In this document: one piece after another, positions 36,001 through 42,000 of the stretch
Numbering within the stretch: position 1 is the stretch's first letter
Layout: each line of letters begins with the position of its first letter
DNA from: Syntrophales bacterium
Lineage (GTDB): Bacteria; Desulfobacterota; Syntrophia; Syntrophales; UBA2210
Assembly (NCBI GenBank): GCA_963666365.2
Contig: CAXXNF010000002.1
Coordinates: 1,984,001-2,048,000, forward strand
DNA length: 64,000 bases
Direction of reading: 5' to 3'
Made by a program: the position numbers

Positions 36001-39000
36001 CCGATTTTGTCCTGCTCGTTACCGAACCGACTCCTTTCGGTCTTCACGATCTTACACTGGCCGTAGGAATGGTCCGCGAGCTTGATATCCCCTTTGCCGT
36101 GGCGATCAATCGATCCGACATGGGAACGGATGAACTTGCGCGCTACTGCGCCTCCGAAGGAATCGATGTCATACTCGAAATACCTGACGACCGGCGAATC
36201 GCCGAGGCCTACTCGCGGGGAGAGATGATTATTCATGCCCTTCCGGAGTATCGCAACCTTTTCGATGCCTGTTGGAATGAGGTGATGTCACGACAGGGCC
36301 TCCCATTGTCAAAACAGAACGAGGAGGTACTCTAAGGCCATGAAAGAAATTGTGATAATCAGCGGAAAAGGGGGAACAGGCAAAACAAGCATCGTGGCGT
36401 CCTTTGCCGCGCTGGCGGGGAAAAAGGCACTTGCCGACTGCGATGTCGATGCCGCGGACCTTCACCTTGTACTGAATCCGGTGATTGAGGGTCGTGAAGA
36501 TTTCAGCGGCGGAAAGAAGGCGCGCATACTTGAAGACGCATGTATCGCCTGCGACAGTTGCATCGAGACATGCCGATTCGACGCGATATCCTACGGCGTC
36601 GGAGGAAAAGTCGATGCGGAATCGATTCCTTCAGTTAATCCGATTTACTGCGAGGGATGCGGGCTTTGCGTGCGCATCTGTCCGGCCGAGGCTATCGCTT
36701 TCGAACCGAGGATAAACGGCGAATGCTACGTATCGACCACGAAATATGGACCCATGGTGCATGCACGGCTCGGCATTGCCGAGGGTAATTCAGGAAAGCT
36801 CGTAAGCCTTGTGAGACAAAAAGCACGGGACATTGCGGAACGAGAGGATCTTGACTACATTCTCGTCGACGGGTCTCCGGGAATCGGCTGTCCCGTCATT
36901 GCATCCATAACGGGGGCCGATGTGATAGTGGCCGTAACGGAACCAACGCTTTCGGGAAAGCACGATCTATTGAGAGTCGCCGATCTGGCGGGTCACTTCA
37001 GAGTTCCCCTGCTTGTGTGCATCAACAAATGGGATCTGAACCCTTCAGTTGCGGAAGAAATTGAAAAGGTAACCGGCGAACGAGGCGCCGCCGTGGCCGG
37101 CCGCGTGCGATACGACAGGGCTATCACCATGGCACAGATAGAAAAAACCACCGTCATCGAATATACCGATCAGGGCGCCTCCCAGGACATTAAGGCACTC
37201 TGGGAAAGAGTGAGGGCCGCTCTCCAATGAACGGGCAGATCAAAGAAAAGGAGCGAAGGAGAGGCCGACCTATGCGTATCGATGCAGTGAGCGCCTGTAA
37301 ACATTTGGGCCATTGCATATAAAAGTCGATTGAAATATATATAAAAGTCGTATAAGGAAGATAGGTTATATGTCGAAAGGAGACAGGGTACATGAGCGGT
37401 AACGGAAAAGATCAGGAAGGTCGTAGCGGCGAAACGCCGCCGGCCGGCGACAGCACACTGAAATCCTATACGGAGGGTCAGGCTTTGACGAACCGCATGG
37501 GTGAAATACAAAACAAGATTATGGTCCTCTCCGGCAAGGGGGGCGTGGGCAAAAGTACCGTCGCGGCAAATATCGCGGTCGCCCTCGCTATGGAAGGAAA
37601 AAAAGTGGGCCTTCTTGACACGGACTTTCACGGCCCGAGCATTCCCACACTTCTCAACCTTGAGGGAAAGCGGCCGGGAAGCGACGGCACATCGATCCTG
37701 CCCGTGGAGTACGTCGAGGGCATCAAGGTCATGTCCATCGGCTTTCTGGTGCCCAACCGTGATGACGCCGTCATCTGGAGAGGCCCCATGAAGATGAACG
37801 TGATCAAGCAGTTGCTCTCTGACGTGAACTGGGGAACACTGGATTACCTCGTGGTGGACTTCCCTCCGGGAACCGGCGACGAGCCCCTCTCGGTCGCCCA
37901 GCTCATTCCCCACAGCAACGGCGCGGTGATTGTCACAACCCCTCAGGATCTTTCACTCAACGACGTGCGGAAATGCATCAACTTCTGCCGCCAGGTCAAC
38001 ATTCCCGTCCTGGGCGTCATAGAAAACATGAGCGGATTGGTCTGTCCCAATTGTCACCACCTCATCGATGTCTTCAAATCGGGCGGCGGGGAGAAGATGG
38101 CGAAAGAAATGGGCGTCCCCTTCCTGGGGAAAATACCCATCGACCCGAATGTCGTTGAAGCCTCGGACAGAGGAATGCCCTTCGTATACCATTATTCCAA
38201 GTCGGATGCCGGAAAGGCATTTCGCGAAGCCATCGAACCCCTGCTGAATCTCACGCCCTCCGGAGCGTCGGCAGTTTCTGCAGAAACCCTCAAAAAGGAC
38301 AGTGATATGAAGACAACGCGCATTGCGATTCCTGTGGTGCAGGGACGCCTCAGCCCCCATTTCGGTCATTGCGACACCTTCGCCATTTACGACATCGATC
38401 CCGAAAAAAAAGAGGTCCTCTCTGAAACCACAGAGGAAGCCCCTCCGCACGAACCGGGACTTCTCCCCCGCTGGCTCGGAGAGAAGGGCGTACATGTCAT
38501 TATTGCTGGCGGCATGGGGGCGCGGGCCCAGGAGCTCTTTGCCGAACAGGGGATATCGGTTTCCATCGGCGCACCTTCAGATACCCCCGAAGCGATCGTC
38601 AATGCCTTTATGGAAGGCACCTTGACCCTGGGGGATAACATCTGTGACCACTAATGAACGGCAGAAAGATGACAGGGGAATAATTGAGGCGCTCCTGGGA
38701 ATGGCCTATGAAAAGGCCGCCGAGGTGTATTCCGAAGCCCTCGTGGATGCGGGTATGAACCCACAGCACTACGGCACGCTGCCGAACCCCGACGGATATG
38801 CGGCAGTCACCGGGACCTGAGGAGACACCGTCCAGATCTTTCTTCGGGTAAGAAAGGATATCATCGAGGAAGCAAAGTTTTCCACCGACGGGTGTATGTT
38901 TACCACCGCCGCGGCGGAAACGGCAGCCAGGCTGTGCCTGCACAAATCAATCCGGGACTGCCTTTTTATTAACGAAAGCGCAATTCTTGCGCAACTGCCC

Positions 39001-42000
39001 AGGATGCCCGAGGATCACAGGCATTGCGCGCTTTTGGCCGCAATGACATTCCAGAAGGCGCTGAAGGAGTGCATCGGAGGCAAGGGGACACAATAAATCA
39101 GGAGGTATGCGATGGCCGGAACCGCAGCGATCACCGAGGTTGACAAGGTAGAAATCATTACGCTTCAAGACAACTATATCGAGATTACCGCGCAGGACAA
39201 CAGTGCGGTTATTTCGCGGGCCATGGCCGTCCGCAACGGAGAAATCAACAACTCCATCCAGGCGGAGCACGGGTTTTCTGCCATAGTGAGAACCACAAGG
39301 GGGGGCGCCGGACGGACCATGCTCTTCGACTTCGGCTTTTCACCTGAAGGGGCCGCCTTTAATGCGCGGGCCCTCAACATCCCCCTGCAGGAGGTTGAAG
39401 TCATGGCCTTGTCGCATGGTCACAGCGATCACACCGGCAGCATGGGGGAACTTACCCGAATGATCGGTCGAGACGGCATTCCGCTTGTCCTCCATCCGAC
39501 CGCCTTTGCCTATCCCCGCTATCTCAAGCCGATTCCGGATCTCAAAATATATTTTCCCCGTCTGATTCGCGAGGATTTGACTGCCCAGGGCATCGAGGTC
39601 ATCGAAACGAAAGATCCCTATCCCCTTCTTGACACCCAGGCGCTCTTTCTCGGTGAAATAGAACGAATCACTGATTTCGAAAAGGGGTTCCCCATCGCCT
39701 ATCGGGAAGAAGCAGGAAAGGAAATCTGGGATCCCATCGAAGATGATACCGCTGTTGTCATGAACCTGAAGGGAAAGGGGCTTATTGTGCTTTCCGGCTG
39801 TGCCCATTCGGGCATAGTCAACACCGTTGCCTATGCGAAAAAAGTGACCGGTATCGATCAAGTCCATGCAATAATGGGCGGATTTCACCTTTCCGGACCT
39901 TTGTTCGAACCGATTATCGACAGAACCACGGAAGAGATAAAAAAATTTCGGCCTACCTATGTGGTGCCCTGTCATTGTACGGGAAGAAATGCTATTATGC
40001 GCATGGAACGGGAAATGCCGGACGAGTTTATTTTAAATATGAGCGGCACGACGCTGACCTTTACCGCTTGAGGGTTCATACCCTTTGGACCCGGCAACGC
40101 TCCCTTCCGCAACGCGGAGAGGGAGCGTTTTTATGTAAGCCCGCTCTCTGAAGGAAAACGCAATGGATGTGAAAAACGAAACACTGTGCAGTTTATTTCA
40201 CCGGCAGGCGCTTCGCTACGGTGATACATATGTTTTTCTTAAGGCAAAATTCGACGACGAGGGGAAACCCGCTTCCTCATACCACTCTCTCACATGGAAA
40301 GACGTCCGCGATCAGGTGTTGGAGTTTGCCGGCGGACTCTTGTCTTTCGGAGCAAAAAGGGGGGATAGGGTTGCCCTCTTTTCGGAAAGCCGCCCACGAT
40401 GGATCATCGCCGACCAGGCCATACAGGCGGCTGGGTGTATAGGCGTGCCCCTCTATCCCACGCTGACCAGGGAGGAACTGACGTACATGCTCCGCGACAG
40501 CGGCGCCGGCATCATTATCGTCTCAACCGCCGACAAAGCATCCATGGCCCTTGGCGTAAGAACCTCGGAAAAGCTGGATTTAATAATTATTGTCATGGAA
40601 CCCTGGGAAGCGGAAAAACCGGAAGACCTCTATACTTTCTCTGAAGTAAGGGAGATGGGACAATTGGGAATAGTCACCGACGAAGTGGAGCAGCGGATAG
40701 AAGCGGTCAGACCGGAGGATAGCGCCTCCATCATCTATACCTCGGGAACAACCGGGTATCCAAAGGGAGTGGTGCTGACGCAGTCGAACTGGGTGGCCGC
40801 CATGCACCAGGCATCTCATTCCACATTGATTCGCAGGCAGAAAACAAGGGAACTCCATCTCACCTATCTTGTCCATCTTCCGCTCTGTCACGCCTACGGA
40901 CGAACCACGGACTATCATGTGGGGGGGCTTCACCTGGGAGGGATTCTGGTCTTTGCCGAAAGTTACGAAAAACTGGTCAAAAATATCGCCGAGGTCCACC
41001 CCAATGTGATCATCAGCATCCCCAGGTTTTTCGAAAAAACCTATGATATTGTAAAATCGACCCTGGCAAGGCAGCAGCCTTTCACCCGCAGACTTTTCAA
41101 ATGGGCAATGGAGACGGGCACAGATTTTACCAATGCCATGGCCGGAGGCCCGAAGATGTCGCTTTCGACTTCACTCAAGTTCGGGCTGGCTCACCTGCTG
41201 GTGTTCAACAGGATCAGGGAAAACGCGGGATTTGATCGCCTCGTTATCGGCATATCGGGGGGTGGAAGACTTTCCGGCGATGTGTGCAGTTTTATCAGAG
41301 CGCTGGGCATTCAGCTCAATGAAGGATACGGACTTACGGAAACCTGTGCGCTCCTCAATTTCAACGAACCCGAACTTTACGATATTAAAGAAAAGAAGCT
41401 CACTGCATGGGAACACAGGATGATCGATTGGATCGTCGATCTTCTGGTGGCCAGGCAGGCGCAGGGGAATAGTCCCTACGCCAACCCCTTCAGCGCGCTG
41501 AAAATGCTTATTGCCTATTACAGTATCGGCTACCGGCTGAGGGTAAAGCCGGGAACGGTGGGAAGACCGGTTGCTCTTACGGAGGAAATAATCGCCCCCG
41601 ACGGTGAGATCCTGGTCAAGGGACCCCAGGTATTTCAGGGGTACTGGAACCTGCCGAAGGAAACCGAGGCGGCCTTCAACGAAGAAGGCTGGTTCATGAC
41701 AGGCGATATCGGCGCATTCGACTCAGAGGGGTTTCTGACCATAAAGGACAGAAAAAAAGAACTCCTTGTCACCTCCGGAGGAAAAAATATCGCCCCGCAA
41801 CCTATCGAGCACGCTCTTGCAACCCGCCCCTACATCGATCAGGCCGTCTGTACCGGCGATGGCAGAAAATATCTGACGGCGCTTATTGTGCCGGATTTTA
41901 AAAAACTTCGGGCCTATGCAAAATCCAGGAGTCTTAAAGCGGATTCGGAACAGCAGCTTCTTCAAATCGATGAAATTAAAACACTGATCAGAGGCGATGT

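What a model noticed while it worked through the whole genome (the two positions that open the first line are those of the whole stretch)
38701..39096. Selenocysteine replaces the first cluster-ligand cysteine in an IscU/NifU-N-like scaffold
g03053 and g03054 are one 131-aa IscU/NifU_N-type protein with in-frame UGA (Sec40, TGTUGDT) at the first conserved Cys (CGD motif) of the Fe-S scaffold. It lies behind Mrp/NifX-like Fe-S carrier genes (g03049-g03052).
Evidence so far: Translation call 26; NCBIfam NifU_clost/IscU align 10-123 across the UGA. 61 Syntrophales genomes: orthologs in G020 and G058 also have the TGA, the other close homologs have none; in 8 aligned loci the column is U in 3 and Cys in 5. 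Hairpin about 20 nt behind the UGA. Not in the review table.
(Added by a program. Inside this text positions count along the whole contig: contig position 1,984,001 is position 1 of the stretch shown here. "Call 12" and the like, gene names such as g00115 and contig names such as C1 are that model's own, and its searches are not shown. The text may have been shortened before it was handed on; [...] marks where a part breaks off. The agent that wrote the report below was given it as the finding of a first reader that could run no searches.)

Follow-up and report, generated by a model that had tools for sequence, protein, structure and literature searches.

The report
Selenocysteine-containing IscU-like iron-sulfur scaffold gene
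An IscU-type iron-sulfur scaffold gene in an orange-protein (ORP) gene cluster encodes selenocysteine in place of the first cluster-binding cysteine, a selenoprotein family I did not find in the published lists I could search.

Summary
Window 38701-39096 (+) is one 131-codon frame with a single in-frame TGA (38818-38820). It aligns with the first ligand Cys (CGD motif) of IscU/NifU_N proteins.

Support for selenocysteine:
- 12 orthologs in 11 of 201 genomes of the order, plus 16 metagenome loci, carry TGA in that column. The 20 closest other orthologs carry TGY.
- The frame after the TGA is under purifying selection.
- A 7-bp hairpin 17 nt after the TGA is kept with covariation in Sec forms (95.7% of cells paired), not in Cys forms (65.7%).
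- selA, selB, selD and tRNA-Sec are present, and TGA is otherwise the commonest stop.

The upstream genes are an orange-protein (ORP) cluster: an Orp8-like gene, two Orp3/4-like MinD-ferredoxin ATPases, and MrpORP above its NCBIfam cut-off. A canonical NifU-NifS pair lies elsewhere.

Most likely this is a dedicated Fe-S scaffold feeding MrpORP, with Sec40 as cluster ligand and/or sulfur acceptor. That function is inferred, not shown.

I found no NifU/IscU selenoprotein in two reviews, the deep-Sep and BSepDB papers, or six library searches. Two papers by Haft were not readable. Verdict: new member of a known kind, interest about 0.6.

The parts
38701..39096 (+). CDS of the IscU/NifU_N-type selenoprotein (131 codons + TAA)
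   Evidence: Translation. Pfam NifU_N 70 bits. AF2 model pLDDT 92.9 with an IscU fold, TM 0.85-0.88 to 7c8m/4eb5/2z7e. The conserved start M[AVI][YRH]E is shared by orthologs.
38818..38820 (+). In-frame TGA = Sec40, at the first cluster-ligand Cys (CGD motif)
   Evidence: Aligned with C38 of 7c8m IscU. The same column is TGA in 12 orthologs and TGC/TGT in 20. The TGA is kept in two independent assemblies.
38838..38856 (+). SECIS-like hairpin: stem CUUUCUU / AAGAAAG, loop CGGGU (38845-38849), starting 17 nt after the UGA
   Evidence: Paired cells: 95.7% in 20 distinct Sec-form rows, with covariation at pairs 21-39 and 24-36 and 0 of 500 shuffles as high. Paired cells in 20 Cys forms: 65.7%.
38824..38826 (+). 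Asp42 codon (CGD aspartate)
   Evidence: Aligns with D40 of 7c8m. Nearly invariant in alignment A3.
38893..38895 (+). Cys65 codon (second ligand Cys, TDGC)
   Evidence: Invariant in A3.
39022..39027 (+). His108-Cys109 codons (third ligand pair, HC)
   Evidence: Invariant in A3. Aligns with H106-C107 of 7c8m.
37392..38654 (+). MrpORP (Mrp/NBP35 P-loop domain + Nitro_FeMo-Co domain), directly upstream
   Evidence: NCBIfam NF041136 MrpORP 541.8 bits, cut-off 450. Pfam ParA + Nitro_FeMo-Co. It is the only above-cut-off copy in the genome. It lies upstream of the IscU-like gene in 23 of 32 order-level loci and next to it in 16 of 16 metagenome Sec loci.
36340..37230 (+). Orp3/Orp4-like MinD-type ATPase with inserted 2x[4Fe-4S] ferredoxin motif
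   Evidence: Pfam CbiA + Fer4_7/Fer4. Architecture as described for Orp3/Orp4 in PMC6345978.
35457..36335 (+). Orp3/Orp4-like MinD-type ATPase with inserted ferredoxin motif (paralog)
   Evidence: Pfam CbiA + Fer4.
35033..35401 (+). Orp8 (orange protein)-like single-domain Nitro_FeMo-Co protein
   Evidence: Pfam PF02579 6.3e-20.
39112..40071 (+). MBL-fold protein of unknown role, conserved downstream neighbour
   Evidence: Pfam Lactamase_B, weak. PDB relatives are uncharacterised (Tm1679 and others). Found beside many orthologs.

Best explanation
The gene encodes a real selenoprotein. It is a single-domain IscU/NifU_N-type protein in which UGA-encoded selenocysteine (Sec40) takes the place of the first of the three cluster-ligand cysteines (U-G-D42 ... 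C65 ... H108-C109). SelB/tRNA-Sec decoding is directed by a short hairpin 17 nt downstream of the UGA (loop NGKGN). The Sec coding rests on comparative evidence; I put it at about 0.9. The gene is the fifth gene of an orange-protein (ORP) cluster: Orp8-like, two Orp3/4-like MinD-ferredoxin ATPases, MrpORP, then this gene. The housekeeping three-domain NifU with NifS lies elsewhere. Inferred mechanism: the protein is a dedicated scaffold that assembles a transient Fe-S cluster on Sec40/Cys65/Cys109 (with Asp42/His108) and passes it to the carrier MrpORP. MrpORP has been shown in Desulfovibrio to load Orp3/Orp4. The selenolate is more nucleophilic and a better leaving group than a thiolate (recalled chemistry). 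It would speed sulfur capture and/or cluster release. Sister species use Cys at the same site, so Sec tunes the function and is not required for it.
For: Sec/Cys column:
- TGA is on the CGD Cys in 12 of the 32 best orthologs of a 201-genome order sample; the other 20 carry TGY.
- A pattern scan returned 16 metagenome loci. 15 are full-length and 1 is cut by a contig end. All sit next to an MrpORP homolog.

The frame after the TGA is translated:
- After the TGA, pN is 0.07-0.30 against pS 0.21-0.93 in 28 pairs of 8 Sec forms.
- Strain variants inside the CDS are 11 synonymous and 5 non-synonymous.

Hairpin:
- 12 of 12 Sec forms have at least 6 of 7 pairs, against 4 of 20 Cys forms.
- Paired cells are 95.7% in Sec forms against 65.7% in Cys forms.
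- Pair 21-39 occurs as AU 6, GC 5, CG 4, GU 2; pair 24-36 as UA 15, CG 2. None of 500 shuffles reach the observed pairing or covariation.

Sec machinery and codon use:
- selA, selB, selD (itself with a TGA) and tRNA-Sec (76 bits) are present.
- SelA scores above its cut-off in 10 of 10 other Sec-form genomes.
- TGA ends 865 of 2111 open frames of at least 300 codons, so the code is not globally changed.

Fold and ligands:
- The AF2 model has pLDDT 92.9.
- Foldseek top hits are IscU structures, including Aquifex IscU with bound [2Fe-2S] (TM 0.85-0.88). SufU scores lower (0.66-0.74).
- C/U40, C65, H108 and C109 are invariant and D42 nearly so.

Context:
- MrpORP scores above its cut-off.
- Synteny is shown.
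- PMC6345978 (passages read) says MrpORP transfers Fe-S to Orp3-Orp4-Orp8 and that the maturation actors of ORP proteins are unknown.
- NifU and NifS lie elsewhere in the genome.
Against: - There is no direct evidence of expression or of selenium incorporation. No RNA run was listed.
- The hairpin is short and AU-rich. On its own the 73-nt stretch folds no better than shuffles (z = +1.09; 181 of 200 shuffles fold at least as well).
- RNAalifold prefers a different consensus on the 12 Sec forms. It pairs the UGA region (columns 2-10) with columns 20-28, which excludes the hairpin.
- The stem bases also encode F-L-R-V-R, so part of their conservation comes from coding.
- 4 of 20 Cys forms also reach at least 6 of 7 pairs, one of them 7 of 7.
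- Sec forms are related to each other, so shuffle statistics overstate independence.
- No Rfam SECIS family matches.
- The scaffold function rests on homology only. The protein scores below the NCBIfam equivalog cut-offs for NifU_clost and IscU, and no cysteine desulfurase gene is adjacent.
- The link to ORP genes is frequent but not universal: 45 of 79 loci of Cys-form relatives in other lineages have an ORP-type neighbour within 2.5 kb.
- The ORP papers I could read do not mention a NifU/IscU component.
Confidence: 0.6

Rival explanations
1. The protein is a genuine Sec protein but acts as a SufU-like sulfur-transfer protein and not as a scaffold. Sec40 takes the persulfide sulfur from a desulfurase, or from another persulfide carrier, as a selenenyl-sulfide and hands it on. 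No cluster is built on this protein.
For: The Sec sits at the position equivalent to the first Cys. In Bacillus SufU that Cys is the persulfide acceptor (recalled, not from a call). NCBIfam SufU matches residues 8-84 (45.4 bits). SufU structures are found by Foldseek at TM 0.66-0.74. A highly nucleophilic selenolate suits an acceptor role (recalled chemistry).
Against: The SufU score is below its cut-off (45.4 vs 92.5) and covers only the N-terminal part. The fold and the His108-Cys109 pair match IscU better (TM 0.85-0.88). All IscU ligand positions are invariant or nearly so. No SufS-type or other desulfurase gene is adjacent.
Confidence: 0.2
2. The protein is a genuine Sec protein that handles a non-Fe-S or heterometallic sulfide cluster for the ORP system. 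One candidate is the Mo-Cu-S cluster described for the orange protein. Selenium is used for its affinity to soft metals.
For: The gene lies in a cluster with an Orp8-like Nitro_FeMo-Co protein and MrpORP. According to PMC6345978, Orp8 homologs hold an [S2MoS2CuS2MoS2] cluster. [quoted passage not shown]
Against: Nothing in the sequence departs from the IscU Fe-S ligand set. MrpORP was shown to carry and transfer Fe-S clusters. No Mo or Cu handling genes were seen among the neighbours scanned.
Confidence: 0.08
3. The TGA is a true stop. The locus is a pseudogene or a split gene, or the TGA is an assembly error, and no selenoprotein is made.
For: Public gene callers treat such loci as truncated. 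P0011, P0013 and P0014 are C-terminal pieces that start just after the TGA position. The single-sequence hairpin energy is unremarkable. No RNA or protein data are available.
Against: The TGA falls in exactly the same column in 12 genome and 16 metagenome loci. The frame stays intact and shows purifying selection on both sides of it. The TGA is identical in independent assemblies. In G000 the next ATG after the TGA is codon 66, so a restart there would lack Cys65 as well. The hairpin is kept specifically in TGA forms.
Confidence: 0.05

Closest known systems
Archaeal/clostridial single-domain IscU (NifU_N; e.g. PDB 7c8m, 4eb5, Aquifex 2z7e)
   Same: Same fold (TM 0.85-0.88, rmsd 1.0-1.5 A). Same ligand positions: first Cys-Gly-Asp, second Cys, His-Cys. 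Similar length.
   Different: Sec instead of the first Cys. About 30% identity. Below the NCBIfam equivalog cut-offs. No adjacent cysteine desulfurase; it sits in an ORP cluster instead. An extra, nearly invariant Cys87 is present.
HesB-like selenoprotein (TIGR01911; A-type Fe-S carrier relative)
   Same: A known selenoprotein family within Fe-S biogenesis-type proteins. It is listed in both reviews. A HesB-like gene with an in-frame TGA also exists in this genome.
   Different: It has a different fold and family. My protein does not match TIGR01911 (one search lists only NifU/IscU/SufU models).
Orange protein (ORP) complex and MrpORP of Desulfovibrio (PMC6345978)
   Same: The neighbour set is Orp8-like, two Orp3/4-like ATPases and MrpORP. 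MrpORP is a carrier that loads Orp3/Orp4.
   Different: The Desulfovibrio orp operons, as described in the passages I read, list Orp3, 4, 5, 7, 8 and 9 plus OrpR, and no NifU/IscU-type gene. I could not test whether Orp5 is related to this protein.
SufU (zinc-dependent sulfurtransferase)
   Same: It belongs to the same superfamily, and its first Cys is functionally critical (recalled).
   Different: Lower structural and sequence match. This protein keeps the IscU-type His-Cys pair.
2Fe-2S-binding CopZ-like selenoproteins (cd10141 forms in the 2026 review table)
   Same: They are a precedent for Sec at a predicted Fe-S ligand position.
   Different: They are an unrelated fold and are not assembly scaffolds.

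Membership tests
Bacterial selenoprotein (UGA-Sec) | In-frame UGA aligned with Cys in homologs (Sec/Cys pair), with the frame conserved on both sides | tested here: met
   12 TGA and 20 TGY in one column. 16 more TGA loci. pN is far below pS after the TGA.
Bacterial selenoprotein (UGA-Sec) | SECIS-type hairpin shortly downstream of the UGA with G in the apical loop (criteria recalled from the bSECISearch description, not from a call) | tested here: met
   A 7-bp stem starts 17 nt after the UGA, with loop NGKGN. 95.7% of cells are paired, with covariation, in Sec forms against 65.7% in Cys forms. The single-sequence energy is not exceptional, and no Rfam family matches.
Bacterial selenoprotein (UGA-Sec) | Genome encodes SelA, SelB, SelD and tRNA-Sec | tested here: met
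   SelA is also present in 10 of 10 other Sec-form genomes.
Bacterial selenoprotein (UGA-Sec) | Selenium found in the protein | not testable with these tools
   No proteomic or labelling data. No RNA run was listed.
Pfam NifU_N (PF01592) | Score above the gathering threshold | tested here: met
   70 bits against 22.
IscU-type scaffold | Ligand set Cys-x-Asp ... Cys ... His-Cys in an IscU fold | tested here: met
   U40, D42, C65, H108 and C109 align with C38, D40, H106 and C107 of 7c8m. They are invariant or nearly invariant. Fold TM is 0.85-0.88. Sec stands in for the first Cys.
IscU / clostridial NifU equivalogs (TIGR01999, TIGR03419) | Score above the curated cut-off | tested here: not met
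   48.1 against 192.4, and 73 against 187.9.
IscU-type scaffold | Gene paired with a cysteine desulfurase | tested here: not met
   The neighbours are ORP genes and an MBL-fold gene. The NifS-like gene sits beside the three-domain NifU on contig C1.
IscU-type scaffold | Assembles and transfers an Fe-S cluster | not testable with these tools
   Needs biochemistry.
SufU (TIGR01994) | Score above the cut-off over the full length | tested here: not met
   45.4 against 92.5, residues 8-84 only.
ORP (orange protein) gene cluster | MrpORP present | tested here: met
   NF041136 541.8 bits against 450.
ORP (orange protein) gene cluster | Orp3/Orp4-type ATPases with two ferredoxin motifs, and an Orp8-type Nitro_FeMo-Co protein | tested here: met
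   The domain architectures match those described in PMC6345978. No direct sequence comparison with the Desulfovibrio proteins was made.
ORP (orange protein) gene cluster | Sigma-54 promoter with an OrpR activator | tested here: inconclusive
   An imperfect TGGCAT-N5-TTGG lies at 34983-34997. I did not look for an activator.

The most novel reading that the evidence does not exclude
Sec40 is not a passive ligand swap. It is the working nucleophile of an ORP-dedicated assembly line. It captures sulfur as a Se-S intermediate and then acts as a labile selenolate ligand that gates cluster release to MrpORP. This would be the first natural selenium-ligated Fe-S scaffold. Sister species with Cys at the same site would provide a ready-made natural comparison.
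Probability: 0.2. Interest if true: 0.8.

Novelty: new member of a known kind. Interest (0 to 1): 0.6.

Why it matters
IscU is the central scaffold of Fe-S biogenesis, and how its first cysteine works in sulfur capture and cluster release is still studied. A natural Sec form, with natural Cys forms in sister species, offers three things.
- A built-in 77Se spectroscopic and chemical probe at that site.
- A test of what selenium buys in metal-cluster assembly.
- A candidate for the missing upstream actor in maturation of the anaerobe-specific ORP complex. PMC6345978 states that these actors are unknown.

It also matters for annotation. Public gene calls truncate these genes (P0011, P0013, P0014), and the NCBIfam release I searched returned no model for this family that scores above its cut-off.

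Tried and rejected
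- Expression: the look-up of sequencing runs listed no RNA holder, so nothing can be said about transcription.
- Rfam: the scan of 38700-39000 gave no SECIS family, only a chance sRNA hit at E = 1.9.
- Single-sequence folding: it does not single out the hairpin.
- RNAalifold: on the 12 genome Sec forms it proposed another helix that includes the UGA. I did not adopt it, because I did not see that it separates Sec from Cys forms.
- Genome-contig scan: its pattern contained the Cys itself, so it could only return Cys forms. It says nothing about Sec forms outside the order.
I dropped the question, so binding between the two proteins remains untested.
- TGA just upstream of the Orp8-like gene (35018-35020; flagged): it lies in AT-rich non-coding sequence after an in-frame TAA, and is not a second Sec codon.
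- Global TGA recoding: rejected, because TGA is the commonest terminator of long frames.
- Sec trait as the reason for Cys forms: rejected, because 5 of 5 tested Cys-form genomes also have SelA.
- Papers not held: PMC12013261, PMC9879109 and PMC3133258.
- Supplements: those of the 2026 review could not be read, and the BSepDB supplement was cut when stored. An existing listing of this family there cannot be excluded.

Full report
THE OBSERVATION. Window 38701-39096 on the + strand is a single reading frame of 131 codons ending in TAA. Its only internal stop is TGA at 38818-38820, codon 40, in the context TGT-U-GDT. Read through, the protein matches Pfam NifU_N over residues 10-123, across the TGA (2.7e-19, 70 bits against a cut-off of 22). 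NCBIfam NifU_clost and IscU cover the same span but score well below their equivalog cut-offs. The best solved relatives are archaeal single-domain IscU proteins (7c8m, 4eb5). In the printed alignments, residue 40 lies on the Cys of the CGD motif, D42 on D40, and H108-C109 on H106-C107. An AlphaFold model built on 32 orthologs is confident (pLDDT 92.9, pTM 0.87). Foldseek places it on IscU structures, including Aquifex IscU with a bound [2Fe-2S] cluster (TM 0.85-0.88, rmsd 1.0-1.5 A). SufU structures score lower (0.66-0.74).

IS THE TGA READ AS SELENOCYSTEINE? Six independent lines say yes.

(1) Sec/Cys pairs. In 201 genomes sampled from the order, the 32 best matches hold 12 with TGA and 20 with TGC/TGT in exactly this column. 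The TGA forms come from 11 genomes, 3 families and 8 genera. The call listed 150 matches and did not list 209 weaker ones. A pattern scan of metagenome contigs that required the TGA returned 16 loci. All encode the same protein: 15 at full length and one cut by a contig end.

(2) The frame is under purifying selection after the TGA. In 28 pairs among 8 Sec forms, pN after the TGA is 0.07-0.30 while pS is 0.21-0.93.

(3) The TGA is not an error. Two non-identical assemblies (95-99% alike) cover it unchanged. Their differences inside the CDS are 11 synonymous and 5 non-synonymous.

(4) A hairpin starts 17 nt after the UGA: stem 38838-38844 / 38850-38856, loop CGGGU. All 12 genome Sec forms have at least 6 of 7 pairs, against 4 of 20 Cys forms. 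Over 20 distinct Sec-form rows, 95.7% of cells pair. Pair 21-39 appears as AU 6, GC 5, CG 4 and GU 2, and pair 24-36 as UA 15 and CG 2. None of 500 shuffles reach the observed pairing or covariation, and slid registers drop to about 60%. The same helix in the 20 Cys forms pairs in 65.7% of cells, no better than shuffles. Sec forms achieve the stem through codon choice (CUU, GUA, AGA), where Cys forms mostly use CUC, GUG and CGA.

(5) The genome has selA, selB, a selD that itself carries a TGA, and tRNA-Sec. SelA is above its cut-off in the 10 other Sec-form genomes.

(6) TGA is the commonest terminator of long frames (865 of 2111), so the code is not changed globally.

EVIDENCE AGAINST, in full.
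- The hairpin is short and AU-rich. The single sequence folds no better than shuffles (z = +1.09).
- RNAalifold prefers another helix, one that involves the UGA.
- The stem is partly fixed by the F-L-R-V-R coding sequence.
- Four Cys forms also reach at least 6 pairs.
- The Sec forms are relatives of each other, so shuffle statistics overstate independence.
- Rfam has no match.
- There are no RNA or protein data.

EVOLUTION. On a maximum-likelihood tree of the 32 orthologs, the Sec label needs at least 3 changes (bootstrap range 3-4), although well-supported branches alone force only one. In a 401-genome sample of the phylum, 28 matches at E <= 1e-25 were listed, and only the window's own carries a TGA. 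Five of five Cys-form genomes tested also encode SelA. The choice between Sec and Cys is therefore specific to this gene and does not follow the Sec trait. Cys-form relatives are widespread in anaerobes. At least 595 were confirmed in the species-genome collection, with record titles naming Syntrophales, Smithella, Desulfobacterales, Dehalococcoidia, a Moorellales bin, WOR-3 and others. That scan's pattern contained the Cys, so it could not have found Sec forms.

CONTEXT. They are more specific than that.
- The gene at 37392-38654 scores 541.8 bits on NCBIfam MrpORP (cut-off 450) and is the only such copy in the genome.
- Before it lie two MinD-type ATPases with inserted ferredoxin motifs (35457-36335 and 36340-37230) and a single-domain Nitro_FeMo-Co protein (35033-35401).
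- This matches the make-up of the orange-protein (ORP) complex of Desulfovibrio as described in PMC6345978 (passages read). There, Orp3/Orp4 are ATPases with two [4Fe-4S] motifs, Orp8 is the orange protein, and Orp9 is MrpORP.
- That paper shows MrpORP transferring Fe-S clusters to Orp3-Orp4-Orp8 and states that the actors maturing ORP metalloproteins are unknown.
- The IscU-like gene follows MrpORP by 46 nt and is followed after 15 nt by an MBL-fold gene. No + strand terminator-like site that stands out from chance separates these genes.

This order is conserved. MrpORP is adjacent in 23 of the 32 order-level loci: 11 of the 12 Sec loci, with the twelfth starting at a contig end. It is adjacent in 16 of 16 metagenome Sec loci. 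Among 79 loci of more distant Cys-form relatives, 45 have an ORP-type neighbour within 2.5 kb. The link is therefore frequent but not universal. A three-domain NifU followed by a NifS-type gene lies on the other contig. The selenoprotein is thus an extra, specialised paralog and not the housekeeping scaffold.

HOW IT MOST LIKELY WORKS.
Shown by comparison: a Sec-containing IscU-fold protein with the full ligand set (U40, D42, C65, H108, C109), encoded inside an ORP cluster.
Inferred: it assembles a transient Fe-S cluster and passes it to MrpORP, which loads Orp3/Orp4. Sec40 serves as a ligand and/or as the nucleophile that captures sulfur.
Selenolate chemistry (lower pKa, higher nucleophilicity, better leaving group; recalled, not from a call) would favour faster capture and release.

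Rivals:
- A SufU-like pure sulfur relay. In Bacillus SufU the first Cys is the persulfide acceptor (recalled). The SufU match here is partial and below cut-off, and the fold is closer to IscU.
- A role with a heterometallic cluster for the orange protein.
- A pseudogene or split gene, which is contradicted by all the comparative data above.

I put Sec coding at about 0.9 and the scaffold-to-MrpORP model at about 0.5-0.6.

COMPARISON WITH WHAT IS KNOWN, AND NOVELTY. Selenoproteins in which Sec replaces a metal- or cluster-ligand Cys are well known. The HesB-like family is a precedent within Fe-S biogenesis-type proteins, and this genome also has a HesB-like gene with a TGA.

I found no NifU/IscU-type selenoprotein in any of the following.
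- The 2026 review PMC13188914: term search of the main text including Table 1 for NifU, IscU, scaffold, PF01592, TIGR03419, TIGR01999, COG0822, assembly and SufU gave zero hits. Its supplements were not readable.
- The 2022 review PMC9312934.
- BSepDB PMC13326102: main text, and one supplement that was cut when stored.
- deep-Sep PMC12013277: main text and 4 supplements.
- PMC1976440.
- PMC1794560, whose table lists 19 selenoproteins for Syntrophus aciditrophicus with none of this type.
- Six library searches.

NCBIfam release 20.0 returned no model that this protein passes. Public proteins from Sec-form loci are truncated pieces named 'iron-sulfur cluster assembly scaffold protein'. I could not read Haft and Gwadz 2023 or Haft and Tolstoy 2025, nor browse BSepDB itself, so prior listing cannot be excluded.

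I rate it a new member of a known kind: another selenoprotein family found by the Sec/Cys criterion. Its added interest is that the site is the ligand cysteine of the central Fe-S scaffold, and that it suggests an upstream actor for the ORP system. Interest 0.6.

Noticed in passing
window 34983-34997: A sigma-54-like -24/-12 motif, TGGCAT-N5-TTGG, lies about 36-50 nt upstream of the Orp8-like start codon. It is imperfect: GG instead of GC at -12. The Desulfovibrio orp operons are sigma-54 dependent (PMC6345978 passages).
   Followed up: no
G000:C2:368292-368531 (-), locus L071 (outside the window): A HesB-like gene with one in-frame TGA (TIGR01911, 39.8 bits, below the 66.35 cut-off). It is probably the known HesB-like selenoprotein type, with the context NAGG-U-GGP.
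   Followed up: partly
G000:C1:483557-484486 (+), locus L012: selD itself has an in-frame TGA. The stretch after it contains the same pentamer, CGGGU, flanked by GGUC/GACC. This could form a loop like the one in the IscU-like gene, although the minimum-energy fold pairs it differently.
   Followed up: partly
loci L037 and L051 (G119); L042 and L052 (G064): G119 carries both a Cys copy and a Sec copy of the gene. G064 (family f6) has two Sec copies that are nearly identical to those of family f20 genomes. This could be transfer, duplication or bin contamination.
   Followed up: no
locus L043 (G190), Cys form: This Cys-form ortholog keeps 7 of 7 hairpin pairs (GUUUCUU AAAAU AAGGGAC). It may be a remnant of a SECIS after a Sec-to-Cys change.
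   Followed up: no
window 39112-40071: An MBL-fold gene is conserved directly downstream of the IscU-like gene in many orthologous loci. Its solved relatives are only uncharacterised proteins (Tm1679, 2p4z, 7dck), and its role is unknown.
   Followed up: partly
window 38959-38961 (codon 87): A fourth cysteine, Cys87, is nearly invariant (at least 90%) in this subfamily. It aligns with an Ala in archaeal IscU 7c8m. I could not measure its position relative to the cluster site.
   Followed up: no
codon 39 (38815-38817) and orthologs: The residue before the Sec is Thr or Ser in all 28 Sec forms. The 20 Cys forms show P, D, V, I, T, S, E or K there.
   Followed up: no
window 42233-42267: A 14-bp symmetric hairpin flanked by A-runs and T-runs lies between the convergent AMP-ligase and dihydroxy-acid dehydratase genes. 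It is a likely bidirectional terminator and the probable end of the transcription unit.
   Followed up: no
proteins P0011, P0013, P0014: Public gene calls for Sec-form loci are truncated C-terminal fragments that start just after the TGA position. Two of them are named 'iron-sulfur cluster assembly scaffold protein'.
   Followed up: yes
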